Source: Dudresnaya verticillata (Eukaryota). From it: a stretch of 64,000 bases of DNA. The position numbers and the translations under genes were made by a program. The notes beneath the pieces are model-generated. The model was not told the origin of the DNA, made no database searches, and saw only the letters and a program-made list of their open reading frames with translations. Below, piece by piece: positions 16,287 to 63,153 of the stretch. Every line of letters starts with the position of its first letter. Position 1 is the first letter of the stretch. The stretch is from NCBI GenBank assembly GCA_977862235.1, contig OZ374559.1, forward strand, positions 2,418,001-2,482,000, written 5' to 3'.

Positions 16287-16420
16287 GGAGAAGATTCTCT
16301 GGAAGGAACGCCAAACAAGGTCAGTGAGAAAAGCAACGCCTTCTTCCCCGACAAGACCGACTCAATCCGAACTCGAGCAGAAATCGGCACCACCAGCTTC
16401 TCTGCAGAGGATTTTCGAAA

Positions 16421-22929: not shown

Positions 22930-23103
22930 TCTCACTTATCATAACAAGCCACATTGTTCCTTATCACTTATGATAACAAGCCAATTTGGCTGCGTTGGTC
23001 GCCTGTGTGCGTGTTATGAGAATCACTTATCATAACAAGCCAATTTAGCTTGTTATGATCATATCATATCATATCACAACAAGCCAATTTGGCTTGTTAT
23101 GAC
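22930..23103. repeat. Direct and inverted TCACTTATCATAACAAGCC repeats, followed by (CA)n-like and GC-rich tracts
   Basis: Three direct copies (22932, 22964, 23023), inverted copies, and a hairpin ACAAGCCAATTTGGCTTGT. Confidence 0.75.
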
Positions 23104-23929
23104 CACGCTCATGGTGCACCACGCTCACACGCAGACACACACACGCACACACATACATACATACACACACAGCGTTCGGGAGGCGGGGCGGCGGGGCGCG
23201 CGGGCGGGGCGGCGGGCGCGCGGGGCGAGTGTGAGGAGGAGCGGGGCGCCGGGCGCGCGGGGCGAGGGGGAGGGGGGTGGGGCGGCCCAGACCTTGGCCG
23301 CTCCAACGCTATATCTACTGCTCTACTCGATACGTCTCTAGAAGTTTCTCTTAATCTACCAATAAAATCACTCCAAAAAAATCATAAAGAGCTCCGCAAA
23401 TTAGTACGACCTTCCCCGTTGGGCTTCTTCATCACCTGCTTCAGCCCTTGCGATCACCGTTCTCGCACCACTGTTCCGAGAAAGCACACTACACTTCTGC
23501 GTTTGCTTTCATTGCGACCACCCCAGGCCATTGATCCTCACATTTCACCGCACTCTCCCCGACGGCGACATCTCTGCCCATTGTGCGTTGTCATCCGGAA
23601 AAAACTCTCGCCTCTACTCCTTCTCCTTCTTTCTCGCCGTTCTCTTCATTCTTTGCCCCCTGCTTTTCGTTCCTGTCTCTGCTTCTAGCGTGCACTCCTG
23701 CGCGTTTCGCTCGTGCTTTGCACCGCTTCCCTTTGCCGCTGTGCTTCGCACCGCTGCTAGGGGCCTCGGCTCTTTTCGCATGTCCTTCCTTCCGTTCTCG
23801 TCTTTTTCGATGTCGCTCGCCGTCGCTTCCACTTCCCTTCTGTATCTGGGTACGCCCTTGCTACGTCCTATCATGCCGACACCCAATGCGACGAAGCGTG
23901 CTGACAAACCGTCTCCGGAGTCTGCCTTT

Positions 23930-24560
23930 AACACAGATTTCCGGGTTTTCAGAATCTCTGTCGCGAAGCAGTCTGAAAAATGCTCATGGAATGGCGATTT
24001 ATATATCGCGTTGGACTGGGAAGAGAGAGCTGAGAAGAATGGTGGAATCGGTTCTGGGATAGCATGTACGGTTGCGGAGTTATGGCGTGCTGCATACAGG
24101 GGTGAAATGTCCCGAAACTTTCGCGAAAGTTGGAAAGTTTCGGAATTTCTGGATTAAAATTTAGCCAGAAATTGCGCTGCCCCCTGCTGCCCTTCGGGGG
24201 GCCCCGCCATCGCACCGGCGCCCGTGCTCCAGCATGTCTGGCCCCGCTCGCCTCACCCCCCGGCCTGCCCTGGGCTGGGACCAAGGGCGCAGTGTCGCCC
24301 CGCACGACTGGTACTGCTTGGCCGCCAGGGTAAATCTGGAGGGTAAACCAGTCATGCGAGGCGCTCAAATACTCACGTGCTGGTACCAGTACCACCGGTT
24401 CCCGCACGTGCGCATTATTCCACTCCGGATCCTGGACCAGTGCGGCTCACCTCGCGCAGCAGCTCCACCTCCATCGCGCGTGCCCCGCACCTCCTCTACC
24501 GCCATCGCGCGCGCGCCACACCATCTCTACAGTCATCGCGCATCTCACATCAAACTGCGC
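23930..24560 (+). repeat. Left terminal inverted repeat
   Basis: About 85-90% match (by eye) to rc of 43920-44317 over ~390 bp, with patchier similarity to ~24560/43800. Confidence 0.9.
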
Positions 24561-24699
24561 AGGAGGTTCGCCACGCCTCGCCCCTGCCGCCCTCCCCATC
24601 ACCCCGCACCCGTAAGAACAGGCGACTCTTGCATCCACAACACGCCCTGCACTGCGCCCCCAGCCGCGGAGTCTCGCGCTGCACATACCGTCGCGGATG

Positions 24700-25566
24700 A
24701 GCCCAACAGCGAGGGAGACCTGTCCCCACCGCCGGGTAGCGCGTCCTCAGCGGATGAGGCCCCCGAAACACAAGAAGAAGAAGACGACCAGCCAGATGAC
24801 GATGGCGATGGACTGCAGAGATTTGTTTCCAATTTTGTCGCGTGGCGCAACTCCATGGTCCAGGTCTGTTCAGACCGGCACGGAAAGTCCTTAGAAGAGC
24901 TGCAGAGTGACTTCTATGCTGCCACTGAATCCACGTCCGCGTCATATACCTTCTTTGCCAACGATGCTCGCTCGTGCGAACCCCTCCCGCGCGACCTCGC
25001 AGACTACGCCATCATTTCCACCCTTAAAGTGTAGGATTCCCTGGCAATACAGAACGCTGCATCTTGGCTGTTTAACATGATGGACCGCACTGGTGCTGGC
25101 CACGTCATACGGGATGATTTTGTGCGTTACGCCGCGTTTATCTGACCAGTTGCGGATGCCGCGGTTGCAGGGCTTGTGTTTGACGAGCTTGTGCGCTATC
25201 TGACCGAGCGTGCCGCAGAAGAAGAGGCGTCAGCAGCCTTGCAGGACTCCAAACAGAACGGCCCTCACTTTTGGAGGGATAGGTAACTGGAACTCGGGAG
25301 AAGAAACGAGGAAGCGCAGCCAAGCCGTTGCTGATGGCTTACATCGACGAGGACCTTTTATGGGCATGGTCAGTGCCAATAGTAATGCTGCATCCCTTGT
25401 ATCTACACATGCGGGCTATGCCATCGACTTCTTCCCCGCTGCTACCAATAGAGACTTCTGGGTCAGCAGCCTGGCAGGCGACAGGGCTCCCCTGCACGAC
25501 CTTTATCCACCAGCTGTTGCGTTGCGGTATGCGATCTGGTGCCCATTCTTTCTCTCTATTCAGTAG
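24700..25566 (+). pseudogene. Degraded EF-hand-like gene fragment (possible captured host sequence)
   Basis: Reading through the TAG at 25032 gives SWLFNMMDRTGAGHVIRDDFVRY, which resembles an EF-hand loop. Further stops and frameshifts follow. Confidence 0.4.
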
Positions 25567-25789
25567 AAGTATCTTTATCATGACTACAAGTCGCACCGCC
25601 TTCGGCGGGGGCGGCGCTGCGCGCCGGTAGACCGCGCCTTCGGCGCGGGACGGCACTGAGTGCTGGTATGATAGTCCCCGCGCCGAAGGCAGGCGCGGGG
25701 TGTAACGACGGTCGCGCGCGCACAAAAGTAAATAACCAAATTAAGAAATCACGCGCACCGCAAAGGTGTCGGCTGTAAGGAGCACCATC

Positions 25790-25809
25790 CAGCCAATCAA
25801 TGGTGAGCT

Positions 25810-25845
<36 letters not shown>

Positions 25846-26755
25846 ATTTTTTCATTGGCGCTGCGGCCGTGTATTTTAGATATAATTTCGGATGCGTAGA
25901 AACTATTGTGGCGCCAAGTGGATTTGTTGGCGCATCGATATACAAATTTGTTTATTTTTCGAGACCTTGCCGGGCTAATACTACCCTTTGGGCGGTCATA
26001 CCCCTACAAATTCTTACTATAAGGTAAACAAGGGCAACGACGCGGCGCTGCGCGCCGCTATGCGCCGTGCAACCGCGCCGAAGGCGCGACTGACTCCTGT
26101 AACCTCTGTGGCACGAAGGGATACTGTGGGATACACGCGGCGCTGCGCGCCGCTATGCGACGTGCAGGCGCGCCGAAGGCGCGACGGACTCCTGTACTCT
26201 CTGTGGCATGATACGATACTGTGGGATACCGGCAACGACGCGGCGTTGCGCGCCGCTATGCGCCGTGCAGCCGCGCCGAAGGCGCGACTGACTCCTGTAA
26301 CCTCTGCGGCACGATGGGATCCTGTGGGATACCGGGGTAGGTTCGGGTCGCTTGATAACGACAGGTGTCTTACAATTTCTTTGTAATGATATTTGTTTCC
26401 AAGCCGTCAGACCGGTGCGGTTTTAATCACATAAATTAGGAATGGAGGCGCACGGCGGGACTGTAAGATCGGTCACTGTAGCGCGGCGGCGCGTGTGTCA
26501 ATTTACTGTCAGAAAATCGGAGCGCACCAATGGGCGCGCGTTGCGGCAAAATGCAGCCAATCGGGTGGCGCGGCTTGGCGGTCAGCCAATGGGGTTGTAG
26601 CTTTGCTGCTGCTGCTGCTGCTGCTGCTGCTGATGCTGCTGCTGCTGATGCTGCTGATGCTGCTGATGCTGCTGCTGCAGCTGCTGCTGCTGCTGAATTT
26701 TTCTATTGGGCGTAAAAGGGTGAACTGGTGATATTTTTAGGCGTGCGTAGAAATA
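25790..26755. repeat. Two (GCT)n blocks with shared flanks, plus ~100-bp GC-rich tandem repeat x3
   Basis: CAGCCAAT..AGCTTT(GCT)n..TTTTT..ATTGG..GCGTAGAAA at ~25790-25905 and ~26583-26755. Units containing GCGCCGAAGGCGCG at 26032-26333. Confidence 0.85.
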
Positions 26756-29134
26756 GGTTTGGCGGCAAGGGATGGTAATGGCGGGCGGATGTTTTTTTTT
26801 ACAAATGTTTTACGTGTACGAAGCCCTCGAGGGGCCTCGTACACTGACAAATCATTACTATGGGGAGAATTACTGGCTGGCTCAATGTCAAACAACAGCT
26901 GTGTAACAACCCGGGCGAAATTCGGATCAAGTCGCAAGGTGCGTTGGATCGCAGTAATGTGTTTCCTACCATGGGAAAGCTTTACCTTAGCCAGAGGTAT
27001 CATATTTTCTTTGCAGCGGTTGGCAGGAATCGTTGTGTCGTAAGTTCAGCGGTTGTTGCAGATGTGTCCACGACAGAGATACCTGTCATGATGCGTGACT
27101 GTTTGCAAATACGTCTACAGCCTGAGAAAAAGGCAGCCATTGATGTGGTATCTGCTCTTTGTAGGGAAGAGAACGCGGAAGCAGGCTGAACATACCGAAA
27201 TGGTCGGCAAGGGCGTGCAGAGTATATCCAGCAAGACCCAGCGCTATCCCAATATTTGTGTAAGCTCATGTGGCAATTCACAGCGAGGAAGAGCCCCTTT
27301 TTTCATCCGTGTCCAAGTCAGAGAGCAATAGAAGCGCAACAATTGGGTTCATCTTACGGGGTAAATCGTAGCAGCCCAAAAACTCCACGTGCAGTTGGGC
27401 TTTGGTAGCTCGCGTCAAGTAATACCCTCGTTACATCCACAGCAGACTCAAGTGTCTGAGCTTAGCGCCAGTTCGGATACTGGAGCCGAAACAGACAAGG
27501 TTGGTCGAGAAACATCAGATATTCGCTTGCTTAACTACGCGCGTGACACGGACCCATTTCGGAACGAACCATCTCCGCCAGTTCTGGCAGTCGCGGCACA
27601 TGCTAATATTTCCCGCTGCCCATCTTTGAGGAGGGTAACAAGGAAACGGGTATTAACTTGCTGCTCTTCTCGCATGCCGAGCGGAATACCCAACTAGTCA
27701 ACTGGTACGCAGACACAGCTGTGTTGGAAATTTTATTGTGCGTCACTATTGCAGCGAACGGCCTAGTACACTACGTCCCAGCGTCCCTCTTCTTCGTGCA
27801 GGAAGCATGGATTAGGGAGACTAAATTCAAACGGCTTGGACTCGCGATGGGACACACGGAGTCGGATGATGCGAAGCGACGCCGAGCCAATCTTCTCGCA
27901 TTTGTTGCGCAAGCTCATGATACAATCGCCGCAGCCCAGAATGTTCTTGGGAGGTTGAACAGAGAGCTTAGGAAAATGCAGTTCTTATTCCTTTTGGGTT
28001 CTGGAGAATGGCAAAGCCGGGTTGCAGTCGGGGTGCTATGATGTGCAGGCCTCATTTTGCTTGCAATTCCATCGCAGACGCTGTTTTGTTGTTCTTATTC
28101 TTCATGTTCTTTAAGCACTTCCTGTCCCCTACCAGTCGGGAATTGCAATATTGGCAGGCTTTCCATCCCTTCATGGATAGAATCGCGACTGAAGACAAGC
28201 GAGAAAGGGGTTCATTAAAGACATAAGGTTGACTTCCCATTCTGTCTCAGTAGATTTACTCAACCCCCTTTTCTACTCTATCTTTTCATTGCTCTCATTT
28301 GACATTCTCACTACACGATTAACTCCTCTTCTTCTTCTTCGCTGCTTAAGGGGTTCGTGCAGCTCCACAGTTCCGCGCACACCGAACGGACAGCTCTGGC
28401 GACAGCTGTCCTAACCGCCGTCGGTTCCCGCCTGAAGTGGCGGTAGCAGTGCATGAGGAATTCGAATTCCTCCATGCACTCGCGAGCCTCCCTTAAACAG
28501 CGCTTGGCGATGTCGTGCTGGGCGCGAACATCGATGCGAAGTAGTACCAGTTGTTCGTAGGCTTGTCGGATTGAATTGCGGTTCATGGTCGATGTTGGCT
28601 GTGCACGGGGAGGGAGGTCGACTTCCATCTTTAATACTGTGGACTGTGGACTGCCGCAGACAAAGCCGGTCGCCTGGTGCAGTGGGAACCAGTACCTGAG
28701 CAGGGGTTGGGGGCGTCAAGTCAGCAGATAAGTGCTAACAGTAATGGAATGCCTTTGCTGCTCATCTACACGAGACGTCCAAGTCCTGCCATTCGCTTTG
28801 CCCTTCGCTAAAGGCAATGTTTCATTGCGCCAATGCCTCGGTCTGTGCACCTTGCACCAGAATATGCATGCGTTGGACCTCCTCGTGAAGGAATTGGGCA
28901 TGCTCGTATGTCACCGTGATGTCGTCACAGTTCATTTCTGGGGATGCAGATACCTGATACTAGGTAAAAGTTGGACAATGCAGTGGAAGGGGATTTCTGG
29001 GAGCCTTTAATATCTGGGAAGAGGAAAAGAACCCCTGATCTCTCAAAGCAAGGAAACGACAGACTACCCAATCGTTACTACCTTTTTTCTTGGTGGTAGT
29101 AGTAGTACTGCTGCTAATACCTTCACGGAGCGCC

Positions 29135-29675
29135 TCATTCGTACATTCGAGTCAAATTGTTGACCTGAACTGTGAGATGCCTGACATGCAGCAACCGCAT
29201 CTCCCTTGCGGTGTTTTCATTCATCTCTACATATCTGGTCTTGAGTAATAGACGGCAGAACCGGTCCAAATGAAAAACCTCTTCTCCAGCCCCGTGGACT
29301 GTCTCAGATATATAAGATTCCAGCAACAGAGCATTTTCCCCTGCATAGCTTCCCTCCTTCACCATTCGGACTTTTCGGCGTAGTAGGCGATACAATTCTC
29401 TAAGACTCCTTGTCTCGTTTCTGTGGTTTCGCGCTTCAGCGTGCGACAGATTCAGGCAGAAACTTTGAAAAGCTTCACTGTCCCTGCCCTAGACCAGTTC
29501 GATGCCTGATTCCCTCAAAGCTTCGTGAGCCCACTGCCTCGACTTTCGGGCCATCTTCATGGACAAACTCCCGTCAAGTGTTTTGAACATGGCATCAAGG
29601 GGATCTTCAATTGACTCGTCCTGGCATTTTCCATCGAATGGTGCCCCGTCGCGATCCACGCTAACAATAGACATG
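29135..29675 (-). pseudogene. Orphan cargo ORF with one internal stop
   Basis: ORFs 29489-29995 and 29135-29395 are in the same frame, separated by one TAG. About 180 aa from MSIVSVD; helical, no motif recognised. Confidence 0.4.
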
Positions 29676-30388
29676 GTTGGTGAACTGTTTGGTTGAATAG
29701 ACGAGGAGCGCTTTGTGCAACATGCAACAGTATCCTTGCTGCAGCAACTATGTTTTATATGACCCGTAAATCCATGTCCACGATTCTTCTGCACAAGAAT
29801 GTTACAGTTATAACGAGGAGCAAACTGACCGCAACAGTTGCGATGTTGTATTGGCGGGAAGTGCTCTGTGTCTGACGCACACTTTATTATAGTGTTACGG
29901 ATGTTGTTGGATGACGAACACGGGTTAGAACATGGAATACTATGCGCAGTTACGCTACTGTACTGTTTTAACGGAGCGGGGTCTCTTAGGGACAAATAGG
30001 GGTCGAAACGCTTGACCGTATTAACGTTATGCCTGTACGGTTCCTATTGAACACCATGGCCATGGATGGCGCTAAGGCCCTCGCGAATTATTGTTATAGC
30101 AGGGAGTGTCTGCTGAATCATCAGGGGTCGTTCCCGGTCTATCTGCACAGCTCAATACCACGCGTAAATTATGATGTCACCTGACTAATGACGTAATATA
30201 CTAATCAAACTGTTACGAAGACGACGGAAATTGATCCACAATACGACGATGCTAGTACAGAAACTGATCCCGTCACCCTGCTGTAATCCGTCAGAGGATC
30301 CAGAGACTGTCATCCGAGTAGTAGACGTACTCGTCCCCATGAAACAAAATTGTCCTATACTGTTCCGTCTGATGAACGCAGTTGTTCT

Positions 30389-30563
30389 ATTACAGGAGCA
30401 GTAAAATAATGAATGTGATAGTAGTCACAAATTGTTAGGTTGTACACTCCCACTATTAGGACACAGGAAACATACAGGAGCATTACAGGAGCAGTAAAAT
30501 AATGAATGTGATAGTAGTCACAAATTGTTAGGTTGTACACTCCCACTATTAGGACACAGGAAA
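30389..30563. repeat. 93-bp-period tandem duplication
   Basis: ATTACAGGAGCAGTAAAATAATG...GGACACAGGAAA occurs at 30389 and 30482. Confidence 0.95.
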
Positions 30564-30594
30564 TAGAACTTTATCAAACTGTTGGCTAACGCCA

Positions 30595-31467
30595 TCACTC
30601 CAATGCTTCTTTCAGATCTTGTAGCCTTTTCTTCAAGAATGGCACATGAACGCAGCACCCGGTGCTACGTCTAATCAGGTTCGCTAGGCGCCGCGGATTT
30701 TCCTCGGACTTATCTCCATCACCATCCATACATCCGCAGTGAGGGCCCTTCCCTAGGTCCAGCAGAGTCAGCCTTTCTATCCTCCGCCGCTCATAAAATT
30801 TCTTTCCTCTGTAATTGAACTTATAGTTTCCGTCGAAGTATTGCTGAGAGACGGAGAAGTCTGCACTTTCAATTCCGCTGACGGCGTACACCCTTTCATG
30901 AAACGCTTTGAAAATAGACGTGTCATAGAGACGTATTCCTAGCTCTTCCAACCCGACGATACGTATCTGACGCTGTCTTGCCCGACTGACTATACCCACA
31001 AACCTCTCCTCTCCCATACGCTCGACTGCATCCTTTAAGCTCTCTCCTTCCGAGTTCTTAAAATCGTGTAGGTTCAGGGTCTCGCCTTGTGAGTTGTCGA
31101 CTTCTTCTCTCCCTCCAGAAGCGTTGTGCGTGGACATTTTTAACAGTAGTGCTCCACGGAATAGGTGCAACCTCTGGGCATTCGCTGGAATGAGTGCGGG
31201 TGGCTGTGAAACGCCTGGTTTCGAGATTCCAGCGCTCATGATTTGTGCACAAAAGGGTGGAGAGTCCGACTTTAAGGGTGCAGGCATTTCTGCACAAATG
31301 TACAGAGAGGCATGAAGATACGCAGTGTCACCATAGTCACCCGAGACAGTTTCGGTTGGTGCCGAGTTGGCGCCAACGCGTGGTCTAACTTTGAGTGTGG
31401 ATAGCAGCTCAATACAAATTACTATACCCATACAATCGTATGACCTGCGACTCGCAACCATGCGCAT
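30595..31467 (-). CDS. Orphan cargo protein, divergent from the MTase gene
   Basis: 290-codon open frame (likely start MSTHNA at ~31137). C-terminal HCGC...GCCVH cluster could bind metal. Confidence 0.45.
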   Translation of the reverse strand: MRMVASRRSYDCMGIVICIELLSTLKVRPRVGANSAPTETVSGDYGDTAYLHASLYICAEMPAPLKSDSPPFCAQIMSAGISKPGVSQPPALIPANAQRLHLFRGALLLKMSTHNASGGREEVDNSQGETLNLHDFKNSEGESLKDAVERMGEERFVGIVSRARQRQIRIVGLEELGIRLYDTSIFKAFHERVYAVSGIESADFSVSQQYFDGNYKFNYRGKKFYERRRIERLTLLDLGKGPHCGCMDGDGDKSEENPRRLANLIRRSTGCCVHVPFLKKRLQDLKEALE

Positions 31468-31872
31468 GATTTGGTCGTGAATATCTCGCAGCCTGTTTTT
31501 CGGGTAGCATAGGACTACTGTACGGACTGCAGCCCAGATCTCTCTTGTACTGTAGACCCCCTCATAGTAGTCACACCCTGGTCGGGTTTCGCAGTCCTGA
31601 GACTGGAGAGTTTAGTACCGAGACTGTAGCATGTATCTGTCCACGATTGGTATGAGCAAAATCCATGCACAAGCGGATGAGGTCAATGACAGCGGCTGAG
31701 TCACATGGTTTTAATTTAATGCACATTCTTTCTCTCAAGCAGTGGGAAACGTGGTACATGGATGTATGGGACAAGGGCGGAAAGCTGTGTCCGACAGAGG
31801 CAGTAGTCAGAATTCATTCAGACATCTCATCCAGAACTTCGGCTTACCGGTGCACACGATAGCCTGAGAAAT

Positions 31873-34806
31873 ATGCCACCGAAAAAGAAGAAGGGAGTGG
31901 CGGTGAGATCTGTATCCAACCAAGGACAGACCTCATCAGACATAAGAGCGCCTGTATCATCTGGGAATGATAGAGTTCTGTTCGCAGATGTCGTTAATGG
32001 AGCTACGCACAAGCGAGTCGACCCTCGTCAATGTGTCCCGTTGACCTACGTCCGCCCGATCTGCAGATCGGGCGTCGAGCGATTGAAACGCATTTTCCGG
32101 GGGACCGACCGGTACAGTTCAGCGACATTGAAGTCTCCCGTGGAAGGAGCTCCGGACTCTATTGGTTACGTGGCTGGTAGTGATATGCCTGTCGTTGTGC
32201 CATTGACAGGGGCATTGAGAAGCCGTGTGTCCGATTATTTCAGGTCACAAACAAGGAAGGACTGTACGCGTCGTTCCGAGAAAGAAGTTCAGGACATTGT
32301 GAAATCGAGGGGGGAATGGTACGGAGTAGTTGATGGCATGCATAGATTGGCAGCTATTCGTGAGCTGCTTGAAGAAAACTACAACCAGTGGAAAACCTTT
32401 GACTGGCCTGTGCTGGAGCTGAACCCGCGGACCGAGCTGGTGGTCCTGAAGCAATTCGCTAGACATCAGAATCGTAAGCACGAGGCAAACTGCTTCGTGG
32501 AAACTACCCTGTATAACACATTGAAGGGTCTGAAAGATGAGGCTGATCGCCTTCAAGCGGAGGGAAATGGTATCAAGCCGACAGCAAAAGCGGTTGCGTC
32601 CGCTTACGATGGGGGTGTTCATATGCACGAGAACACAGTGAGGCAGACAGCGCAAGTAGCTTTCCGACTAAGTTATCGTGTCATCGATGCGATAGGGGAG
32701 ATAATGGGGGAAGAAATACCGCAGCTTGCATTGGCTTCACGAAATGGAAGAACTGCTAAATCAGTAGCAGACGATGCCCTGATGCCGTCGATGGACTGCC
32801 GGGTTTTCCGGAAGTTTATTACTCTGAACTCACTGAAGGCTGCCGCAGAGTTCATGCGCGCGGGCCAAATGAGTGGCGTGGTACATGATGAGAGTGTGGA
32901 AGTCCAGGTCTCGACACTCTACCGCATTCGAGAAGTATGCAGGAGGAACGGGTTCAGGCCCGTTCTTTACGGGGTCACCAAATCAGAGTTCGGGAAGGCT
33001 AAAGATGCGCTAGCAGATGTTCGCAAATTCGGAGGCCTTCGTGAATCTGAGGACTGGCCGGGTCCCATGGACACGATGCGGACAAATCTTCTGCGATCCC
33101 AAAAGTTTGATGGCGATATCATGCTTAACAGGGGCAACGACACATTGATTTTGCAATGCATTCTGGATATGTACAAGGACTGTTGCCCGGAAGAGGCCCC
33201 CCTGAAGATCCACAAGTACAATTCTGTTAGAGAAAAGAATAGAAAGGAGGGCGACGAGGAGATGGCTTTGGATCAGGAGGATTTGAATGGAATTGCCACG
33301 CGAGTGCAAGATTCGGGGTGTGTGAATTCCGATCAGGTAACGACCGTTCGAAACAAGGACCATCCCCGAGATGGACAGGAAGAACATGAACACGCATCCT
33401 CTCCTTCTGCCAATCTAGAGCCGTTACCTTGCAGTGGGGACCTTGGTTCGACCGGAGACCGTCTCTGTGACGATGCGGAAGATGTGCAGGGGTCCGCTGT
33501 AAAATCTGCAGCGACAGTGAACACGGAAAAGTCAGAGAGGCTGGCTGTACGTGGGGACAAGAATACATCTCACCACAATTTGGAAGCCGACATCCTGAAG
33601 TCGTTCAGAATAACCTGCCATCAGATGCGGTGGCAGATATTCGACAAGAATGTTCGCGAGGGTGTTGGGGACCTATACGACGCAGTTCTTACCGACACAC
33701 CGTATGGAACGCCTGCATCACAGTCCGGTGCAGGGAAGCAGTACGGCAACTATATGAGTGATTCTGAAATATCTGAGCTTGCAGAAATGTGCAGGCAATC
33801 CGTTGTGCCGGGAGGGTGGGTGTTCATGTTCGTGTCCTACCAGACATTCGAACCTATAAGGCAGGCTCTTCTCAAGGCCGGATTCATTTGCCCAACTTAC
33901 GCCTTTTCGATTGCAAAGGATACACACACGGTGCAGGAGAGGCGAGGAAATGACTGTCCCCAAAATGGCCACGAAATTGCTGTCATGGGAAGAGCCCCAG
34001 GACAACACCCCAACGGATTTAAAGTGGATCTTCGAAGCCCGTACCAATTTGTGAAGGCCTCCGAAAAGAGAAAGTTTGCATGCATGTCCCAAATTCCTGT
34101 TTCTAAGAAGAAGCTTCTTAAACCGGGTACCAAATCTCCGGTGCTTACGGAGGAGAAGAATGTTCAGCTGTTAGTGGAATTGTTGACGACCTTCTGCCCT
34201 GAGGGAGGTGCCATTCTGGACATGTATGCCTGAACGATGACAACTGCAATTGCAGCTATGCAGACTGGGAGGAAGTGCACCTGCATAGAGCAGAGTCTAC
34301 AGACGTACAGGCTTGCAGTTGCAGGCTTGAAAAGGATAGCAGGTGATCATGGAAAATTGTCGGATGGGAGGGAAGGAACACCACTGTGTGGTAGAGAGGA
34401 ACAGGCCCTGGGAGAAGACCAGGGAGCAGCTGTGGAAATTCCGCAACAGAAACGGCTGGGGAATGAGGCGGAGAAGGACTCGGATTGTATTGCAGGAGGC
34501 GATGCTGTTGTTCTGTACGTCGGGTAGAACGTTGTTGGGAAGGCAAAAGTCCAATTCGGGGCAACTTCTGAAGAAAAGGTTCGCAAGCATATTCATCTGA
34601 AGCCCCTGTCGGAATACGAAAAGGCAGGACAGGAACTCATTGCGGTTTATGCCTTCGAATGTGATTCATCCTTTACCACGTTTGCGTATCCGTATAACTT
34701 TCATGTTCCGAACGGCCGCCCTGCCACGAGCCTAGGTGGGCTAGACGGATTCTTTGCCTGGGATCTCCATGCGATGGAAGCCCACGCGCGATGCGAGCAG
34801 AAATGA
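31873..34806 (+). pseudogene. ParB-like domain + beta-class N6/N4 DNA methyltransferase fusion (~977 aa, two in-frame stops)
   Basis: N-terminal PPKKKK (NLS-like). ParB/Srx-like YGVVDGMHRLAA. Motif IV DAVLTDTPYG (DPPY-like, 33691). Motif X-I EKNVQLLVELLTTFCPEGGAILDMYA*TMTTAIAAMQTGRKCTCIE. Stops at 34231 and 34525; the frame continues to TGA at 34804-34806. Confidence 0.85.
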
Positions 34807-36029
34807 GATTAAAGCAATGTTGAGCATAAGAATCGTTCGCTTGAACAGTATGCTACGCCAGTGCGTGGTATCACAAGCCATAAGCACATGCTGCTCTTCC
34901 AAGGAGGCCATATACTGCCGCCGACAGCACCATCCCTGTACAAGTCCACAGCGCAAAAGGTGCATCCTCGCTCGGTCGCAATTACGCAGCAAGGTTTCCT
35001 TCACAAGGATCTGCAGAGTCCGACCGACGCTCTTTCAGCGCATGTGATGAATGTGGAGCGACACGGAAGATCTGCCAACAAGCCCGAGTGAGACTGCTGC
35101 ATTCACAGCCCCTATACCGTAGTACAGGTAGTAACGTATCAGCAGTACTGTAGCAGCGAGGCGGGTCACAGCACTCGAGTTCTGTGACCCGCACAGATAT
35201 GTGAAACCAGAGCTATAATTTGTAGGTGATTGTACTCGCGCAAGACACTTGCGCTTCGCTGCGGGACGAGTGTCGGTCGTTCCCAAATTACTCCAATCGT
35301 GTGAAAACCTATCACAAATTATGGAGAATGACCAACAGCTTTTCGGAAAGCCGCACGTAAATTTCTATTAAACAGGTCATGCGCATCCCGAGATCTCAAA
35401 AGCTATGATAGGTTTTACGAAAATCGAGGCCTCATGTGCTGTTCAATAGCTTTCTGAATCTCACTGGTCGAAAAGCTATCATAGGTTTTGCGATTACCTC
35501 GGGCCAAACACCTGTTTACTAGAAACTACGGTTGCTCGAGCCCAGGACCTATTCCGTATTATGGAGAATGCAAGATAGGTTTTCGGCTCGCGCGGCATAA
35601 ATCGCTCCGGATTTGTGCTACGAGATTTGTCTCGGAATACCTCTCGTAATTTACCGTCGGCGCACGAGAAGCGTTTGGCGCCCGTGCCAACCAAGCGCTT
35701 GTGGCATTCACAGTTAATGCTGAACCGACTTTCTGCGCGTGACGTTGCAAAGCGTGCAGCTTCAGCGGCAGCTTCATCGGCCTTTTCGGCGGCCCGTGGG
35801 TTTCTTCTACCGCGCATCACATCGCTAGCAGAACTTGATGGGGTGGGAGGTTGCGGCCGCGGTGGGGTGGCAGAAGGGTGGGCGGAAGGGCGGGTGCAGT
35901 CTGCCAAACGGCAGTGGGTGGGTGTGCCAGGCGGCTGCAATAGGCTGTGGTATCAGTGCAGTGCCAGGGTGGCTTTCCCTCTCCCTCTCCCGGTCGCCCT
36001 GGCATTCGCGCTTCGGTGATTTCGACACG

Positions 36030-37450
36030 TGCCCTGCTGCATGCCGCGCTTCAGCGAGTGGGTGGTATCGACAATGTTAGTGCGGCGAAGTAGGCCGGCA
36101 ATACTGCGGAGAGGTAGTTGCGGGCGGAGGGGGATGACCTGCGTGGCCTGGATGAGGTGCTTTCCGCGGAAAAGTTCGCGTCACATGATTCAGATCACGT
36201 CAGGGTGCCTGCTGCGTGCGCACGGGCTGCGATTGCGCGTATTAGAGCCCCAGACCCGCCGAGCTCTCCGCATAAGATCAACCAAGTCTGCTAGCTGTTT
36301 ATCGAGCAGCTTACTCTTATCGTCTCGCCAAAAGATGACATGGAGGTCTATCGCTTTTTGTCATTGGAGCATATGGCAACCGTCAAGACTTTTGCAATCT
36401 TCTGCGACGATGACGGCATCTTGTGTGAATTTTCTCTCTGCGCACAGTAAGGCGACAACATCACCCATGAAAGCTTGCGCGGTTGTTCCTTAACATTCTT
36501 GCGTCTCTTGACGACGAGTGCGAGGATCTGAGCGATACATTTCTGGATGCTTCGTTGGCGCCGTTGGTACCCGTTGGAATAATCATCTTCAACTGTCTAA
36601 TGAGCGGAGCGCGTTGTCAACGCGAGTGCGAAGGACCTTCAAGTCCCTCTCTGCAACATGCTGAACGCCTCTGTACAACAAATGAGAAGTTAGAGACGCA
36701 ATGGTTGTGGCAATTGGCGCGGCAGTTGAGGTCGCGAGCGACGGATTGCTAAATCATCTTGCAATACAATTGCGAGACCGGGACTATTTGCTACGAAATG
36801 CCGCTCTAAGGCAGGTCATTGGTTTCTATAATAGAAAGCTGTTTCTATAATAGAAAGCTGGGCGTGACATCCAAGCAGCGCAAAAGCCAGGAGGGTGGTA
36901 GTGTTGGTGACTCGCATACTCGAGAAGACGAAGACTTCGGCCTTGCTTTGCCAAAATCTCGTGACGAATCCGCGTCTAGCATCGATGACAGAATGGAGCG
37001 AAGAATCACAAAGAACAGAAACCCGGGTAATGCGACTTAAGTGGTTGCTTGATGTGCCTGTTCAAGCAAATACAGCACTGAGGAATGCTGGTGACAATGC
37101 CACCGCTACGGGTATTGAACACGTCATCTACGAAAAGATTCCAGGTTACAAAAGCAATGATGAGCATGTTTCCAGGGTAAGACATGTGCTGCTATGTTCC
37201 TTTCAAACCCAGAGGACAGCTGCTTCGCACACGTTATATCATTATCTCATGAACGGCAAAAGGTACGTGAAGCATTGGCGGCAATAGGCAACTACTGTCT
37301 TGCCTCTAGAAGGACCAAATATCAAGCTGCTAAGAATAGCCTATTCTTTCTCACTAAGTGGGGATGATATTTCCAACGAAACTAGCGACGTTGCCCCGGC
37401 TAAGTGTTCTAAAGGAAAAGCTCCTCCAAATAAGCCTGGTTCTTTAAAGA
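36030..37450 (+). pseudogene. Degraded unknown ORF (cargo)
   Basis: Successive protein-like frame segments (~36080-36460, 36483-36752, 36819-37287) broken by stops and frameshifts. No motif recognised. Confidence 0.25.
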
Positions 37451-38100
37451 TGGACATTTATGACGCCCATGAAGTATGAGAGAAGAATGCTACAGCTGTT
37501 GACGGCTGTTCCACAGGTGCGGAAAGGAAATCCGCGCTTCGAGACGCAGTTTCGAGGATTGGTCCCAAGTGACCTATGGACACCTGCTTGCAAGAGCAGG
37601 TAATTCCAATATGTCTGCCTGGATTATTTACGTCTCTCCACTTTATCGCTGCATGTGAGTTGGCTGTAGGAGATAGCAAGCCGTCTTGCCTCTTTGAACA
37701 ATCAGAAGCTGGTACTGGTGTTGGTGGGGGTGAGGCAGATTTTCCGACTGCCTTACGCGGCGTCTTTCGATCGTGTTTCGATAGTATGGCAAGGTATTAT
37801 ACCTTTAAATCACTCTCAGACACTCCTCTGGGCTCGTTCAACGCAATGTGAAAGAGATTTGCGCTATGGTCACAACCTCATTGCACTCTTGTAACTCCTG
37901 TGGCGCGTCGGGAAAGCTCCGAGTATGCAAATCTACAGTTACATGAACGGAGCACCGGCTTTGGCGAGCAGAGCGAGGCGGACGCGTTGTGGTAGAGTGG
38001 CACGGCGGAAAGGCGCGCACAACGGCCCGGGCGGTGATGTGCGCGCAGAGAGATTTACTAATGGCGGTTATCGTGCCATAACGGTTTCGGAGCAGGTCTT

Positions 38101-38642
38101 TTAGGATTCGGAGCGGGAGGATCGTGGGCTGGCTTGGGCCTCAACGGATGTGATCACAGTTTCCAGGGCAAACATTGCCTGCGATAAGGCCAATGTGACA
38201 CTGCGATGAACTCGGCGAAAGAAACTGCCAACCATGCGCAGAGCCGCTCGCTGCAGACGGGCAACCAGCTGACTCAGCTCATCCTGAGCGCTCCTAAGTT
38301 GCTGCAATTCTTCTTCAAGCTCAACGAGTTGCGCTTCGACATCTTCGAGACTTATGTCATCCGTTTGCATCAGGCTTGTTCCGTGACTTCAGACTCCTCG
38401 TTTCTGCGGGCAAGGTGGCGCTGCAAACCCGCGATATGTACTCTTGATTCTGTAAGTTTCTCCTGGATGAAGACAAGCAGACAGTTGATTTGACACACAA
38501 CTGGCCACCCTAGTCGTTGAAGCTCACGCGACAAGTACGATACTGTCTCCCGAATGGCCCTGATCTCCCCCTGTAGTGTAGCTATCTTCTCCTGAGCGGA
38601 ATGCAGCCTCCCTTCTCTTGTCTCTTGATACATGTTGTGCAT
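38101..38642 (-). CDS. Coiled-coil ORF pair (TGATG overlap or frameshifted single gene)
   Basis: Heptad-rich segments LHSAQEKIATLQGEIRAIRE and LEDVEAQLVELEEELQQLR; stop and start overlap at 38370. Confidence 0.4.
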
Positions 38643-39406
38643 AAGGTAGAGTCTGGAACGTTTGTCTCACGGCGAACTTCAAATTTGCAGACTGGTACTT
38701 GATGCACAGGTTGGTGCATGTTCGCAAACTGGTGAAAAGCCAGCTGTAGCCCACGGCAGCTCATTGGATTGACTTGTCCTTCTTCTGCAAGAAAAATCAC
38801 GGGGTATCGAGACGCAAACATCAACGCTGCCGGCAGCCGGGGTCTTACTTCTCAGCCACTCTCGATGCTATTTCTTATCCTTGACGCCCATCAATACTAC
38901 CCGCTTGTGGTCGCATGGCGGAATAGAGCAGTCTGCAGGGCGTACACTTGCGATACCGAGTACTGCTTCTTGATTGACGGGGACTCGAGATTCGCGACTT
39001 GTCCGTTCTGATTGGTAACATGGCACGCTCGTCTCTCGAATCAGACTGTTTTGTTCGCACTGGCGCTATAGTGTATGGCGGAATGGAGTGGTGCATACAG
39101 AGCGAGAGGCAAGCCCTTCCAATACCAGTCGTTTTAACTGGGATCCGTAGCAACTGTGGGCATGCGCAAGCCTGTCATGCAGAACGCCCCACCGCCTCTG
39201 GAACAGTATTATATCGGTGTCGTTTCAGAAGCGCCCTCGGCCCTCCCGAGTATTTCAGCTCTTCAGAACAAGTAGCGCACAGCTATCGCGCCCTAGCGGG
39301 AACATCGATTTTGCTCCTTCACTTCGCCCGCCCTGAGTGCAAGGAGCATCTTGCACTAGTGCATTGCAAAAGGGTCAGACTCCCCTGCCGAAAGGGGTAG
39401 TAGGAC

Positions 39407-40468
39407 ATGGCCCAAGCCTCATCTGGGCAGGTTTCGAAAGCAGCAAGCGTTCCAGTTCAGAACGACGACGACTTCGGCGATGAGCTGCTTCCCGGAACAA
39501 AGCCCGGCGCACGAGTCATGCTAACTCTCAACGGGGAACACGTTGCTCCAGCAACCCTGCTACGACCTCATGATTTTATTGAGGGTGCCGTTGATCCCAG
39601 TGGGCGATTCAGCACATACCTGCACGGGCGCAACCTTGGGCCTCAACAACGTGATGGAGAAGTATGGGTTGTAGTTCACCTCGTGCGATGCCTCCACAAC
39701 TTCAATTCCTACGAAAGCCCGTTCCAGTACAAACCAGGCAGTACGCCTTGTCCGGAGACACTGAGTCGAATGCAGACTGGAAAACACGCCTGGGACCTAT
39801 TCCAGATTGAGGAGCTCGTAACCATCTACAATACAGAGCGCAGAAAAAGCTCAGGTGCAACTGTTTCCGGAGTGGAAAAACGTGCGGTGGCTGACGCTAA
39901 CCCACCAACACCCCCTCTGCTCAGGGGTCGCAAAACCGCTCCTCACCCAAAACAGCAGCATGGTGCGGAAGAAATGGCAGCGGTGAACAGCCCTTCAACA
40001 CCACCGCCAGAGAAGGGCAATGAAGAGGAAGAAGTCACAAAACTTCTGCAGTACACACCTGTACGCCGGCCACCTATGCGTGAACGACCCCGGAAACCAT
40101 CCAAGAATAACGTCCCGGACGCCTTACCAGTCTCTTCGGCCCCAGTGTCTCTTGAAACCACGACTACACCCGTGGAAGAGAGAGATCCTCGTGTAGGCGT
40201 GACAGACAGAGGCGATCCAGATCTGAAACAAAACTCTGCTAGGGCTGTCGGATCTATTCCTTCTCGAGGAAAAGGAGCATGCGACGAAGAGAACTGTATC
40301 ACGTCCGAGCCATGCCCTGCACACAATGTCAGACATACGCCTGAAAGCAGTTCGGGTTTTAGTAGTGGCGCACCAGAACCGGACCCTGATGCTACCCGGC
40401 GTTGGCCGCGAGTACTAACACAAAGGGTGACGTGGAACGAACGCCAGGTGCTGATGGCTCGGAAATAG
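39407..40468 (+). CDS. Transposon accessory ORF / N-terminal part of the transposase gene
   Basis: 353-aa ORF. The N-terminal globular domain (VMLTLNGEHVA..LHGRNL..PFQY..TL..HAWDL) resembles the MTase C-terminus; the rest is low-complexity. It overlaps the next frame. Confidence 0.6.
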   Translation: MAQASSGQVSKAASVPVQNDDDFGDELLPGTKPGARVMLTLNGEHVAPATLLRPHDFIEGAVDPSGRFSTYLHGRNLGPQQRDGEVWVVVHLVRCLHNFNSYESPFQYKPGSTPCPETLSRMQTGKHAWDLFQIEELVTIYNTERRKSSGATVSGVEKRAVADANPPTPPLLRGRKTAPHPKQQHGAEEMAAVNSPSTPPPEKGNEEEEVTKLLQYTPVRRPPMRERPRKPSKNNVPDALPVSSAPVSLETTTTPVEERDPRVGVTDRGDPDLKQNSARAVGSIPSRGKGACDEENCITSEPCPAHNVRHTPESSSGFSSGAPEPDPDATRRWPRVLTQRVTWNERQVLMARK

Positions 40469-42908
40469 AGAACGGTGAGGAGCAATCAGATGCGCCGACG
40501 TTGGATCTGGTGAGCGACGCAGAGGTGGAAGGTGGAAGTGATGGAATATTAGAAGACGAAGATACTGGAAGCGACCAGGAAATTGAGGACCTCACCACCA
40601 AGGACGCGGATTACGTGCCAAGTGCGACAATTTCACGAAGACGCACGGCAGCATGTGAGGCTGAACGGGTCCCGCAAACTCCCAGAGTTGCTGAGGATGA
40701 GACCAATGGCTCCCGAAAGAGAAGTTACCGCTTCTACGCAATACAAAGAAAGAAGTTGAGGGTTGGTGATACTGCATTGCAAAAGCGTCGCAATGCTGCT
40801 CTGGGAAGGCTTGATGAAGAAGACTGGGGCTCCAAGGAGTGCTGAATGCGGAAGCAATGCTTCAAGAGGGTATCGATTGTGTACATGAAAGCCTAGATTC
40901 GCAAACTGTTGCGTATGGACGCCCATGATCGACGAAACTATTTGCACGGGTTGTTGCAGCGACCGGGATGGAATTATTACTTCGACGGTAAGCCAGTATG
41001 CTACACGTTCCTGTAGACGGCGTTTGGGTTTTCCAGGGACCTGCAATATTCAGTCAAACAGTTTGGTGGAAGCCGACCTATGGAGGTGACAATGCCGTGC
41101 CGTATCATCCTCCGAGTGAGGGCAGGGATAAGATACTAAGTTACCTCAACCGGCTTGCTGAGATAACAGCAAGCTGCATGCCCGACGCAGATGAGAAGCA
41201 TCTGCCGTACTTTGATAAGGCTGCGGTCTACGAGAACTTCCTTCTGGACCAGGATAGACCGTATCCTGTAAAAGACCCGCCTCGACTAAACTACTTCTAC
41301 CACGTCTGGAAGCAGCACCGCAGTGACATAAAAGTCCGCAAAATCCAACGCTTCACAAAGTTTTTGGAGTGTGAAGAATTTCGTGCTGGACTTGCCAGGG
41401 CCGGTACAAACCGCAGGCTTGCGGAGCCGTTCCTGCTCCGTAGAAAGGAACACTACAAGCTGGTTACAAAGGAGAGGGTGTACTACATGGAGAATACGGA
41501 AAAAGCTACTTTGTATCCCTCCGAGTACTGTTCACTGCTAATTGATGGCGCGGAACAGAAATTGTTCGGAGTACCAAAGTTCGTGGTCAGCACAAAGGCT
41601 ACGCGTGGACATGCCATAGCAAACAAATTTGTGGGCGCATTGGAACACGGTTCATTGAAGCACCTATCCCTGTTCGTCATGACAGGAGATTTTGAGACCG
41701 GTGCAAATCACATGATCGAAACAGTCCATCGCCTTCTCACAGTCAAGCATAACCATGGCACTCTGCAGCCTACGCTGTTACTGCAGCTAGACAACTGCAC
41801 CCGGGAGAACAAAAATAAGTACATGCTTTCTTACCTGGAGTGCTTAGTCGCGTGGGGTGTTCTGCATGAAGTGCAGGTTTCCTTTCTCCCAATCGGCCAC
41901 ACCCATTCCGATATCGACCAGGCCTTCAGTTGCACAAGCAAGAGGGTCCGATCAAAAGACATGCCGACCATGTCTTGCCTTCTCCGCGAACTAAGCATGT
42001 CATACACGCCGCGTCCATCGGTGGCAAGGTTGCTGCAGGTAGCCAGCTTTTCCGGGCTGTGTGACAAGTATGCATGTATTGGCAAGACTGAAGCATTCTC
42101 ACACTACATATTCTTTCGAATTACTCGCCAACGTGGAAAGGGCATGGGCAGAAAAGCGAGATTCCGCACGCGATGCCTCGTCAAGATTCAGTGTGGAAAT
42201 GAGTGGAAACCACTTGTAACAGAAGCACGTGGCAGCTCTCTCAAACAGGAAGGCTTCATACTATTCACCCCTGACCGCGTTAGGACGCCAGAGACCATAG
42301 CGCGATGCCCACTTGATATGAAGGAGGTCAATGATCGCATACGTTGCACCGAAGTCCGAGCGCTCAAGGCGTCGCAGATCACCGAACTGGAAAATCTTAG
42401 GGATCACGTCTATAGAGATCGAAACGAACCATTTCACTGGGACTTGGATCACGCCCCGGAGACGAATGGGAAGCTGCGAAGCGATAGTAGACAGGATAGA
42501 GACTCCGAAATGCTTCCGAAGATACCAGAAGAGGAGCAACTACCCGCACAGGACCTAATCTACAGCCACAACAGAATGGTGGCCGTCAATTATGTTCAGG
42601 CGACCGAGCAATGTCCTTTTTACGTGGCAAAAGTGATGGAAGTTGTGAAGGGGGACGATGGAAGGTTTCGAAATTGTTGTTGCGGTGGTATGAAGCCAAG
42701 CACACCGGTAATGTTTTCAGTGCAGCTTACAAACCTTAGTTCTACAAAACCAGGCGCGGGGTCGCAAAGGAATGGGAAGAAGACGTCACCGTCGATTGCG
42801 TACTTGTGGAGTTTGAGTCGCTCACTCGAAATAACCGTCTGCCGGTTGCAGTACAGAAGAAGTTGCGCGAGTGCCTTCACAAACAGTAGCGCCCGCAGCC
42901 ATCTGTAG
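40402..42908 (+). pseudogene. Sola-like DDD transposase, degraded
   Basis: Reading through stops at 40843, 40894 and 41014 gives EC*MRKQCF and YYFDGKPVCYTFL*TAFGFS. Core motifs: LLIDG, LQLDNCTRENKNKY, FLPIGHTHSDIDQAFS. A frameshift at ~42661 extends the C-terminal domain to 42889. Confidence 0.8.
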
Positions 42909-43059
42909 AGCAAGGAATAGATGTAAGTTTACTGAGTCAGAATGGGAAGTATAGAGTGAAGGTGATTAGGGTAATGTGTTTGGGAGCTGCTATGAAACTG
43001 GTTTGTTTTCCTGTTCGTCCAGGACTACCACTTTCTATACTTGAGCAGTAGTGCTAGGA

Positions 43060-43610
43060 CGCGAAATTGGTACTGTGCGAGTACTCGCAATTTGCATTGC
43101 AAGGCAAGGAACGCACACCACGTGGTGTGCGTTCCTTGCCTTGCAATGTAAATAGCGGGGTTTGTTTGTGGTCAGCGTTGCAAAAGCGTTTGAGGCAATG
43201 CACACCGGAAGCCATTTGAAGTTAGAGCGGTTGATGTAGTGGTCCAGCACGTGATGAAGTTTCAGCACTTCAGCAGTTGGCGTCGACGGAAATGAAAACA
43301 CGCGAAATTGTTGTTGTGGAAGTGATTGTTATTTGCCTTCCCATGGCAATACGAGGGCAATGATAACACGCGAAATTGTTGTTGTGCGAGTGATTCCTAT
43401 TTGCCTTGCAATGGCAATACGGGGGTAATGACAACTCGCGAAATTGTTTTCGTGCGAGTGGATTGCGTTGTTTGGCTTGCAATGGCAATAGCGGGGGCTG
43501 TTTGCGCAGCGATGTAGAAGCGATTGAGGCAAGGCGCATCGGCAGCCATGCGCAGGTAGAGCGGTTGGTGTCACTCTGCAGTACCTGATGCAGTTTCAAC
43601 ACTTGAGCAG
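43060..43610. repeat. Subterminal degenerate repeats
   Basis: ACGCGAAATTG(TTGTTGTG)-like units at ~43068, 43300, 43368, 43436. Block ~43135-43275 is repeated at ~43475-43610. Confidence 0.7.
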
Positions 43611-43799
43611 GACCTGCTCAATTTTCCCCCAGTCGCACAACACTTACCGCCGCGGCGGGGCATGTCGTAGACGTGAAGTGTACAACTTCACGCGCACTTT
43701 GACATACCCTGCGCGGTGCGGTACAGTTGGGTCGCGAGGTGCGCGGCTTGATGGAGAGGGCGGCAGGGGCGGGTGTAGACAGCGGGGTGTGGTGAGTTT

Positions 43800-44317
43800 G
43801 CAGTCTGATATGACAAGCGAGATGGCGGTAGAGGTGGTGCGGCACAGGCGCCGCACTGGACCCGGAGTGGAATGATGGCCACGAGACGGAGGGGTGATAC
43901 TGGTGAGCCAGGGTAAATCTGGACCAAGCAGTACCAGTCGTGCGGGGCGACACTGCGCCCTTGGTCCCAGCCCACGGCAGGCCGGAGGGTGAGGCGAGCG
44001 GGGCCAGGCATGCTAGAGCACTGGCGCCGGTTCGCTGCCAGGCGCGCCCGGGAGGGCAGCAGGTGGCAGTGCAATTTCTGGCTAAATTTTAATCCAGAAA
44101 TTCCGAAACTTTCCAACCGTTCGCGAAAGTTTCGGAACATTTCACCCCTATATGCAGCACGCCATAACTCCGCAACCATACCTGCTATCCCAAAACCGAT
44201 TCCACCATTATTCTCAGCTCTCTCTTCCCAGTCCAAAGCGATATAGACATCGTCATTCCATGAGAATTTTTCAGACTGATTCGCGACACAGATTCTGAAA
44301 ACCCGGAAATCTGTGTT
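43800..44317 (-). repeat. Right terminal inverted repeat
   Basis: Reverse complement of 23930-24560. Confidence 0.9.
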
Positions 44318-46300: not shown

Positions 46301-46635
46301 GATCTGGATGTTGGGTAGGTGACGTCGGGTGGCCCGTTTGTCCGGGTGATGGGCCACACATTGGTAATGACGGTGAGCTGGCGCTTACGGGCTTTCGTTT
46401 GCGGGGCGCCGACTCCTCGAGTGACGTTGGTGGAATGTCAGATGGGAGGTGTTGCAGCGTAGCGTGGCCCTGTGCTGTACTATTCTTTGAGTGTTGTGGC
46501 CATCTCTCCTTGTGTTGCAATTTGCGGCCAGTCCTACGGCCAAGCTTCATTTCCGTCAAACGTGGTCGATTCCGTTTATTTTTATCCCAATGAGGTATCT
46601 GAGCGTCTTGAATCCTGCTTCGAGAAGTCACACGG

Positions 46636-50939: not shown

Positions 50940-50944
50940 CGCGG

Positions 50945-51588: not shown

Positions 51589-51589
51589 G

Positions 51590-51610
51590 TGGTCTCCCGA
51601 CCTAGAATCG
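51590..51610 (+). promoter_or_regulatory. Primer binding site
   Basis: TGGTCTCCCGACCTAGAATCG, one base after the 5' LTR; complementary to a tRNA-like 3' end (...GGGAGACCA). Confidence 0.7.
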
Positions 51611-63150: not shown

Positions 63151-63153
63151 CCG

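What the first reader, a model, noticed from the sequence alone, without database searches (positions are those of the whole stretch)
23930..44317. Giant long-TIR DNA transposon carrying its own DNA methyltransferase
Seen: ~400-600 bp inverted repeats 20.4 kb apart enclose a DDD-type transposase (QLDNC..ENKN, FL..GHTH.DIDQ.FS), a ParB-like/amino-MTase fusion and several orphan ORFs. Known: these core motifs resemble Sola-type eukaryotic transposases, and beta-class N6/N4 MTases are mostly prokaryotic or phage enzymes, only sporadically found in eukaryotes. Inference: a family of large cut-and-paste elements that deposits a non-5mC mark (6mA or 4mC) on itself or on host DNA, for self-recognition, transposition control or anti-silencing. 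Caveat: no clean TSD (left CCTTT|AACACAG, right CTGTGTT|CTTGG) and the flanks are unrelated, so the two ends may derive from different copies.
Basis: partly seen in the sequence, partly recalled or inferred. Interest (0 to 1): 0.92.

Follow-up and report, generated by a model that had tools for sequence, protein, structure and literature searches.

The report
Dead giant transposon carrying methylase gene
A 20-kb stretch between two long inverted repeats holds a broken cut-and-paste transposase gene and a broken bacterial-type DNA methylase gene; the two genes are neighbours in related elements too, a design already reported in seaweeds, and working relatives likely bind, and possibly methylate, their own DNA.

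Summary
Observation confirmed; interpretation mostly right but not new. 394-bp inverted repeats (92%) at 23,930/44,317 enclose a DUF7869 DDD transposase and a ParB-like + beta-class amino-methyltransferase (MTase). Both genes are dead here (stops, frameshifts, DPPY to DTPY). The pairing is a family trait: both genes lie on loci L003 and L008; 15 of 24 long MTase contigs match a transposase contig in length and source (0.08 expected); the two gene trees agree over 12 pairs (rho 0.85). The design is published: Ectocarpus Sola1-1_Ec32 (21.5 kb, AACCG ends, 282-bp TIR, 4-bp TSD, ParB+MTase gene). Added here: the nearest intact relatives keep DPPY and resemble N6-adenine enzymes, so 6mA is likelier than 4mC; 34 of 51 long family members have lost that motif, so DNA binding, not methylation, is probably the conserved job; and an unnamed ~95-aa domain is shared by MTase C-termini and transposase N-termini. 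No genome, reads or methylation data were available.

The parts
23926..23929 (.). Left 4-bp flank CTTT, candidate target-site duplication
   Evidence: matches the right flank at 3 of 4; chance 0.052
23930..24321 (+). Left terminal inverted repeat core, starts AACAC; weak extension to about 24,610
25597..26335 (.). Array of a GC-rich motif (GCGCCGAAGGC core, 5 copies of each best 11-mer, both orientations) within 95-103-bp tandem units; candidate protein-binding array (inferred)
   Evidence: 0 copies outside the element in this window
30598..31611 (-). Orphan open frame, 338 aa, divergent from the MTase; no family, no homolog
31873..34806 (+). Pseudogene of the ParB-like + beta-class amino-MTase + domain X protein (977 codons; DGMHR 32,332; DTPY 33,694; motif I 34,219 with stop at 34,231; second stop 34,525)
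34497..34785 (+). Domain X copy 1 (MTase C-terminus), unnamed ~95-aa domain
   Evidence: E 2e-28 with a profile that includes this copy, transposase P0119 hits it at E 4e-9
35302..35585 (.). 284-bp imperfect palindrome; nested foldback element or binding array
   Evidence: E 5e-12
38104..38666 (-). Two short coiled-coil-like open frames; only sub-threshold coiled-coil Pfam hits
39407..42889 (+). Transposase pseudogene: domain X, acidic linker, Cys motif, winged-helix-like part, RNase H core with D 41,544 / D 41,790 / D 41,916, C-terminal BAH/SH3-like barrel (folds from relative P0010). The join of the first frame to the rest is inferred
39504..39813 (+). Domain X copy 2 (transposase N-terminus)
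   Evidence: (MTase P0189 hits it at E 6e-11)
43047..43610 (.). Subterminal 68-bp tandem array and a 72-bp hairpin (43,086-43,157)
43924..44317 (-). Right terminal inverted repeat core, ends GTGTT
44318..44321 (.). Right 4-bp flank CTTG, candidate target-site duplication

Best explanation
This is a decayed 20.4-kb stretch with 394-bp inverted ends, a broken DDD transposase and a broken ParB-methyltransferase gene, likely one old insertion of a Sola1-type cut-and-paste transposon whose second gene is a long-standing helper that likely binds the element's own DNA. In live relatives the transposase would bind the inverted ends, cut, and insert with a 4-bp duplication (inferred from fold, triad and Sola precedent). 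The helper would load on repeated motifs inside the element through its ParB-like half (inferred). In the branch to which this copy belongs, whose intact members keep DPPY, it would also methylate adenine N6 there (predicted; I put this step at about 0.4). Since most branches have lost the catalytic motif but kept the ParB-like and SAM-binding parts, DNA binding or end-organising is likely the conserved job and methylation an option. The shared domain X likely ties helper and transposase to the same sites or to each other (untested).
For: Ends and 3-of-4 flank match; only this offset and length gave a 4-bp near-match. Ages agree: at the 3.6% per-copy divergence of the repeats, 4.0 and 4.7 new stops are expected, 2 and 4 seen. 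RNase H/integrase fold for residues 325-506 of relative P0010, Z 7.5, rmsd 3.3, 138 aligned; three Asp on strand 1, strand 4 and the helix after strand 5, no insertion domain; D2-D3 spacing 42 in 102 of 103 homologs with all three motifs; motif spacing equals the published Sola2 alignment, by eye. Linkage: DNA-level in L003 and L008, the only 2 of 11 close loci with more than 2.2 kb upstream; 15 of 24 MTase contigs of 5.9 kb or more share source and exact length with a transposase contig, shifted-length control mean 0.08, max 2; tree distances agree, rho 0.85, p 0.0001, 12 pairs, and the window's two genes sit in matching places. Five nearest relatives all have DPPY; best folds are N6-adenine beta enzymes M.BceJIV, M1.HpyAVI, CcrM ahead of 4mC enzymes. 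Domain X in 37 MTase and 7 transposase proteins. Precedent: Sola1-1_Ec32.
Against: One copy only; no genome, no reads. The flank match is imperfect and worth only about 5:1. Here the two genes are on the same strand 4.6 kb apart; in L003, L008 and Sola1-1_Ec32 they are on opposite strands, so this copy may be rearranged. About 13 kb of the interior has no assigned homolog, and contigs holding both genes in close relatives are mostly 6-13 kb, so 20 kb may be this copy's baggage. The SAM motif has L/M/F where FxGxG has its last G in 49 of 51 members. The MTase model is poor overall (mean pLDDT 43). Fold Z under 8 is middling. No Sola1 reference sequence could be compared.
Confidence: 0.75

Rival explanations
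1. The helper is an active self-marking enzyme first: the family spreads because 6mA (or 4mC) on its own ends or promoter controls transposition or blocks host silencing.
For: DPPY kept in the whole local clade; DPP[YF] in 17 of 51 long members spread over several branches; co-inheritance with the transposase; same proposal in PMC12477816 (a proposal, not a test).
Against: 34 of 51 long members lack the motif, in large well-supported clades that stay linked to transposases, such as L008 and P0191. No methylation data. Unusual SAM motif.
Confidence: 0.3
2. The 20 kb is a mosaic: a smaller transposase+MTase element (or two fragments) with foreign DNA, and the two inverted repeats come from separate insertions or from an inversion.
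For: Same-strand gene order differs from the 3 other cases with known order; internal 284-bp palindrome and repeat blocks; 13 kb unassigned; the window holds another large inverted duplication at 3,559-18,100.
Against: Sharp common end with 28 identical bp, AAC start as in Sola1-1_Ec32, 3-of-4 flanks at the expected length, matching decay of ends and genes, matching tree positions of the two genes. Giant Ectocarpus elements also carry nested inserts.
Confidence: 0.2
3. An EnSpm/CACTA (Plavaka-like) element, reading the ends as CACAG...CTGTG with a 2-3-bp duplication.
For: CACAG lies 2 bp inside the left end; Ectocarpus EnSpm elements have CACAG ends; red-algal Plavaka elements carry ParB and MTase genes.
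Against: The bases outside CACAG/CTGTG are AA and TT, part of the inverted repeat, not a direct duplication. The only Pfam family shared by the 17 aligned transposases is DUF7869. Third Asp 42 residues after the second, with no insertion domain.
Confidence: 0.04

Closest known systems
Sola1-1_Ec32 of Ectocarpus (PMC12477816; passages, section 5 part 1 and supplementary annotation table seen; its FASTA could not be read)
   Same: Giant size (21,549 vs 20,388 bp), long imperfect TIR (282 vs 394 bp), AAC...GTT ends, 4-bp TSD, ParB-like + N4/N6 MTase accessory gene of about 1,000 aa, same proposed self-modifying role.
   Different: There the accessory gene is transcribed and on the strand opposite to the transposase; here both genes are dead, intronless and on the same strand. 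Sequence relationship not tested. A domain shared between helper and transposase is not mentioned in the passages I read.
Plavaka (EnSpm) elements of Bostrychia with PAG2 and PAG3 (bioRxiv 10.1101/2025.02.11.637652; passages and section 8 seen; supplements not seen)
   Same: 17-19-kb DNA transposons with a PF01555 methylase and a ParB-like domain as cargo, plus arrays of inverted repeats proposed as binding sites.
   Different: Different transposase superfamily; methylase fused to SET, ParB fused to a 2OG oxygenase, in two genes. Here ParB and MTase are one protein. Their Supplemental Table 6 lists other carriers and may include Sola-type ones.
Beta-class N6-adenine MTases M.BceJIV, M1.HpyAVI, CcrM, M.MboIIA; phage MTases phrog_67
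   Same: Motif IV before motif I, DPPY, same fold.
   Different: About 17-25% identity, MTase domain only; no phage record covers the ParB-like half.
Bdelloid N4CMT (PMC8885841; passages seen)
   Same: Bacterial-type PF01555 enzyme in a eukaryote, concerned with transposons.
   Different: Host gene with SPPY and a chromodomain that writes 4mC to silence transposons; here the gene is on the transposon and has DPPY.

Membership tests
Sola superfamily | DDD transposase (definition from PMC10741241) | tested here: met
   Three conserved Asp in 110, 116 and 117 of 120 homologs and in the window; RNase H topology
Sola superfamily | Motif layout D2-x6-KN and H-x5-D3 | tested here: met
   By eye against the published Sola2 alignment: same spacing; no score computed
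Sola superfamily | 4-bp target-site duplication | tested here: inconclusive
   CTTT / CTTG, 3 of 4; probability 0.24 if a decayed TSD, about 0.05 by chance; one copy
Sola superfamily | Terminal inverted repeats (11-1,124 bp reported) | tested here: met
   394 bp, 92%
Sola1 subgroup | Transposase groups with Repbase Sola1 references | not testable with these tools
   No reference sequences; defining papers not held. Leads only: AAC ends like Sola1-1_Ec32; first motif DGADQ differs from Sola2 DFxENY
EnSpm/CACTA (Plavaka) | CAC ends with a 2-3-bp direct duplication | tested here: not met
   AA / TT outside CACAG / CTGTG
Beta-class amino-MTase | Motif IV before motif I; PF01555 fold | tested here: met
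   Relatives pass the Pfam cut-off; fold E 7e-10
Beta-class amino-MTase | Intact [DNS]PP[YFW] and SAM motif in this copy | tested here: not met
   DTPY and a stop in motif I; met for motif IV in the five nearest relatives
Beta-class amino-MTase | Methyl transfer to A-N6 or C-N4 of DNA | not testable with these tools
   Needs an assay or modified-base calls
ParB/Srx-like domain | DGxHR-type motif and fold | tested here: inconclusive
   DG in 45 and 49 of 51, H in 32, R in 23; only weak DndB (E 0.1) and GmrSD_N (E 0.7) hits; that part of the model is low-confidence
BAH domain (transposase C-terminus) | BAH fold and histone-binding pocket | tested here: inconclusive
   BAH structures lead for residues 679-779 (Z 6.9, rmsd 3.4, 84 aligned), with chromo, Tudor and Spt5 barrels within 1 Z; Pfam BAH E 0.04-0.14 in two proteins; pocket not tested

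The most novel reading that the evidence does not exclude
A DPPY-keeping branch of Sola-type transposons encodes a working 6mA writer that is brought to the element's own repeats together with the transposase through a shared, unnamed domain, while the transposase reads chromatin through a BAH-like barrel: a self-marking system inherited with the transposase and repeatedly reduced to a binding-only helper.
Probability: 0.25. Interest if true: 0.8.

Novelty: new member of a known kind. Interest (0 to 1): 0.42.

Why it matters
Transposon-borne ParB-methyltransferases have been described but, in the passages I read, only proposed to modify their own DNA. This work points to intact, intronless, DPPY-keeping members (P0001, P0003, P0004, P0128, P0136) with probable partner transposases for four of them, which makes the proposal testable, and shows that most of the family has lost the catalytic motif. 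If active, they would be a source of 6mA in eukaryotic genomes independent of host enzymes. The copy in the window is itself dead.

Tried and rejected
No host genome. No sequencing run was listed, so no reads were laid. MTase scans of metagenome and viral contigs and a transposase scan of viral contigs found no relative. Orphan ORF 30,598-31,611: no homolog among 1,709 candidates of 185-592 aa. Pfam on 17 + 65 frames gave nothing for the orphans or the flanks beyond weak coiled-coil hits. Domain X: no Pfam family, no Atlas hit, not related to the transposase C-terminal barrel; its likeness to CACTA TnpA-type domains is from recall and was not confirmed. Complex prediction of domain X of P0128 with transposase P0010: no verdict. 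The repeat looked protein-coding in one frame, but differences between the arms are mostly non-synonymous by my reading, so I treat it as non-coding. The TIR profile found no further copy in the window or in loci L001-L054. No clear TIR pair in 8 close loci, which are short contigs. Distant WLWD/WLWI loci were too fragmented to define ends. 4-mer palindrome counts showed no clear target signature. Flank continuity across the insertion could not be tested. Foldseek alone gave no match at E 0.001 for the transposase. Look-ups of earlier findings by sequence and place were empty.

Full report
1. What is there. A self-search of the window finds an inverted repeat at 23,930-24,321 / 43,924-44,317, 364 of 394 columns identical, with the first 28 bp identical and a patchy extension to about 24,610 / 43,740. 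Ends read AACAC...GTGTT. Scanning end offsets -3 to +5 and lengths 3-10 for a direct repeat with at most one mismatch gave only CTTT/CTTG (4 bp, offset 0) and its 3-bp subset; such a match has probability 0.052 between random flank 4-mers and 0.24 for a TSD decayed as far as the repeats. No host genome is held and no run was listed, so everything about this copy rests on one sequence. The host was not determined; Gypsy and Copia neighbours make it a eukaryote, and 'red seaweed' is my guess from recall only.

2. Transposase. The core frame matches DUF7869 at E 3e-43 and 144 proteins, best 48% identical. Homologs extend the gene from about 39,407 to 42,889 across frameshifts near 41,060 and 42,660 and probably 40,400, with four internal stops. 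A model of intact relative P0010 (mean pLDDT 68) has an RNase H core closest to retroviral integrases and mariner transposases (best Z 7.5, rmsd 3.3, 138 aligned), a winged-helix-like part and a C-terminal barrel that ties between BAH, chromo and Tudor folds (Foldseek alone had no match at E 0.001). Three Asp are conserved in 110, 116 and 117 of 120 homologs, D2-D3 spacing 42 in 102 of 103. By eye the spacing of D2-x6-KN and H-x5-D3 equals the Sola2 alignment in the supplement of PMC3627910, while the first motif differs. Sola is defined by DDD, 4-bp TSD and TIRs of 11-1,124 bp (PMC10741241, passages). Sola1 is likely but untested.

3. MTase. One frame from 31,873 to a probable natural stop at 34,804 encodes a ParB-like part (DGMHR), a beta-order amino-MTase and a C-terminal domain; it has two internal stops and DTPY. 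Six close proteins (39-48%) open a family of 221 representatives at E 1e-30 or better. Of 51 members of 750 aa or more (48 of the 150 listed, plus 3 close relatives) 17 keep DPP[YF] and 34 do not, while the SAM motif Asp stays in 50. The window's copy nests among five DPPY proteins (support 0.985). Best solved relatives are N6-adenine enzymes; SPPY marks most 4mC enzymes (PMC8885841, PMC4738411, passages). So 6mA is likelier than 4mC, though the motif does not prove it. Phage matches cover the MTase domain only, about 25% identity, 18 records.

4. Do the genes travel together? Among 80 transposase loci, 11 are close; the two with more than 2.2 kb upstream, L003 and L008, both hold the MTase, head to head. 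For 26 MTase clusters that I looked up, 15 of 24 contigs of 5.9 kb or more, in 9 of 14 clusters, have the same source and exact length as a transposase contig; shifting lengths gives mean 0.08, max 2. This is indirect; one further match at 4,334 bp is chance. Over 12 pairs (9 by length, L003, L008, window) tree distances correlate, rho 0.85, p 0.0001, and the window's two genes branch next to the same group. Linked transposases are scattered over the 118-sequence tree. Two distant loci carry a related cargo with a SET-like part tail to tail with the transposase (L015, L021; SET by my reading of motifs).

5. A shared domain. A ~95-aa domain with no Pfam match ends 37 MTase proteins and starts 7 transposases; an MTase-only profile finds the transposases at E 2e-20 to 1e-11. 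In 9 linked pairs it is on the MTase in 6, on the transposase in 1, absent in 2; the window has it on both. This suggests a common job at the element, but binding is untested.

6. One insertion? Expected new stops at the repeats' divergence are 4.0 and 4.7; seen 2 and 4, so ends and genes are of similar age. Against: same-strand gene order, 13 kb without homologs, and an inner 284-bp palindrome. I put single insertion at about 0.8.

7. Mechanism. Shown: ends, two dead genes, family linkage, motif loss. Inferred: cut-and-paste with 4-bp duplication; helper binds repeated motifs such as those at 25.6-26.3 kb and 43.0-43.6 kb; 6mA writing only in DPPY branches (about 0.4).

8. Prior art. [quoted passage not shown] The Bostrychia preprint describes Plavaka elements with MTase-SET and ParB-oxygenase cargo. 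Methyltransferases in virus-borne Mariner elements were noted in PMC3627910. I did not meet the shared domain, the motif survey or the tree agreement in the passages read; none of my nine paper searches was aimed at them, and unseen supplements of both algal papers may hold them. Earlier scan notes report the same design in other eukaryotes; one of them led me to the Ectocarpus paper; their own claims were not checked.

9. Verdict. Real, dead, a new member of a known kind; interest 0.42, for the testable intact relatives and the shared domain.

Noticed in passing
window 3,559-9,186 / 11,549-18,100: Large inverted duplication (80-98%) with two copies of a Cys-rich, signal-peptide-like ORF (4,359-5,177 minus; 16,328-17,170 plus); no Pfam family for the plus-strand copy.
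   Followed up: partly
window 50,941-63,798: Gypsy-like LTR retrotransposon, 650-bp LTRs 96% identical, RT and RNase H frames; related LTR-like bits near 19,600-19,830.
   Followed up: partly
window 46,600-50,800, minus strand: Copia-like remnant by motif reading; no Pfam hit at E 0.01.
   Followed up: no
window 22,991-23,147: About 150-bp palindrome with TATCATAACAAGCCAATTT repeats just outside the left end; GC rises from 0.38 to 0.55 here.
   Followed up: partly
window 35,302-35,585: 284-bp palindrome downstream of the MTase, MITE-like or a binding array.
   Followed up: partly
L015:1,321-8,790 and L021:1,133-6,101: Distant DUF7869 transposases tail to tail with a probably spliced gene; in L015 it has a ParB-like motif, DPPW, a SAM motif and a SET-like part.
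   Followed up: partly
P0095: A member of this eukaryotic transposase family is labelled as a Bacteroidota MAG protein, probably a binning contaminant.
   Followed up: no
L008:335-3,319 minus: Intact-looking helper gene with TAIPS in place of DPPY beside an intact transposase.
   Followed up: partly
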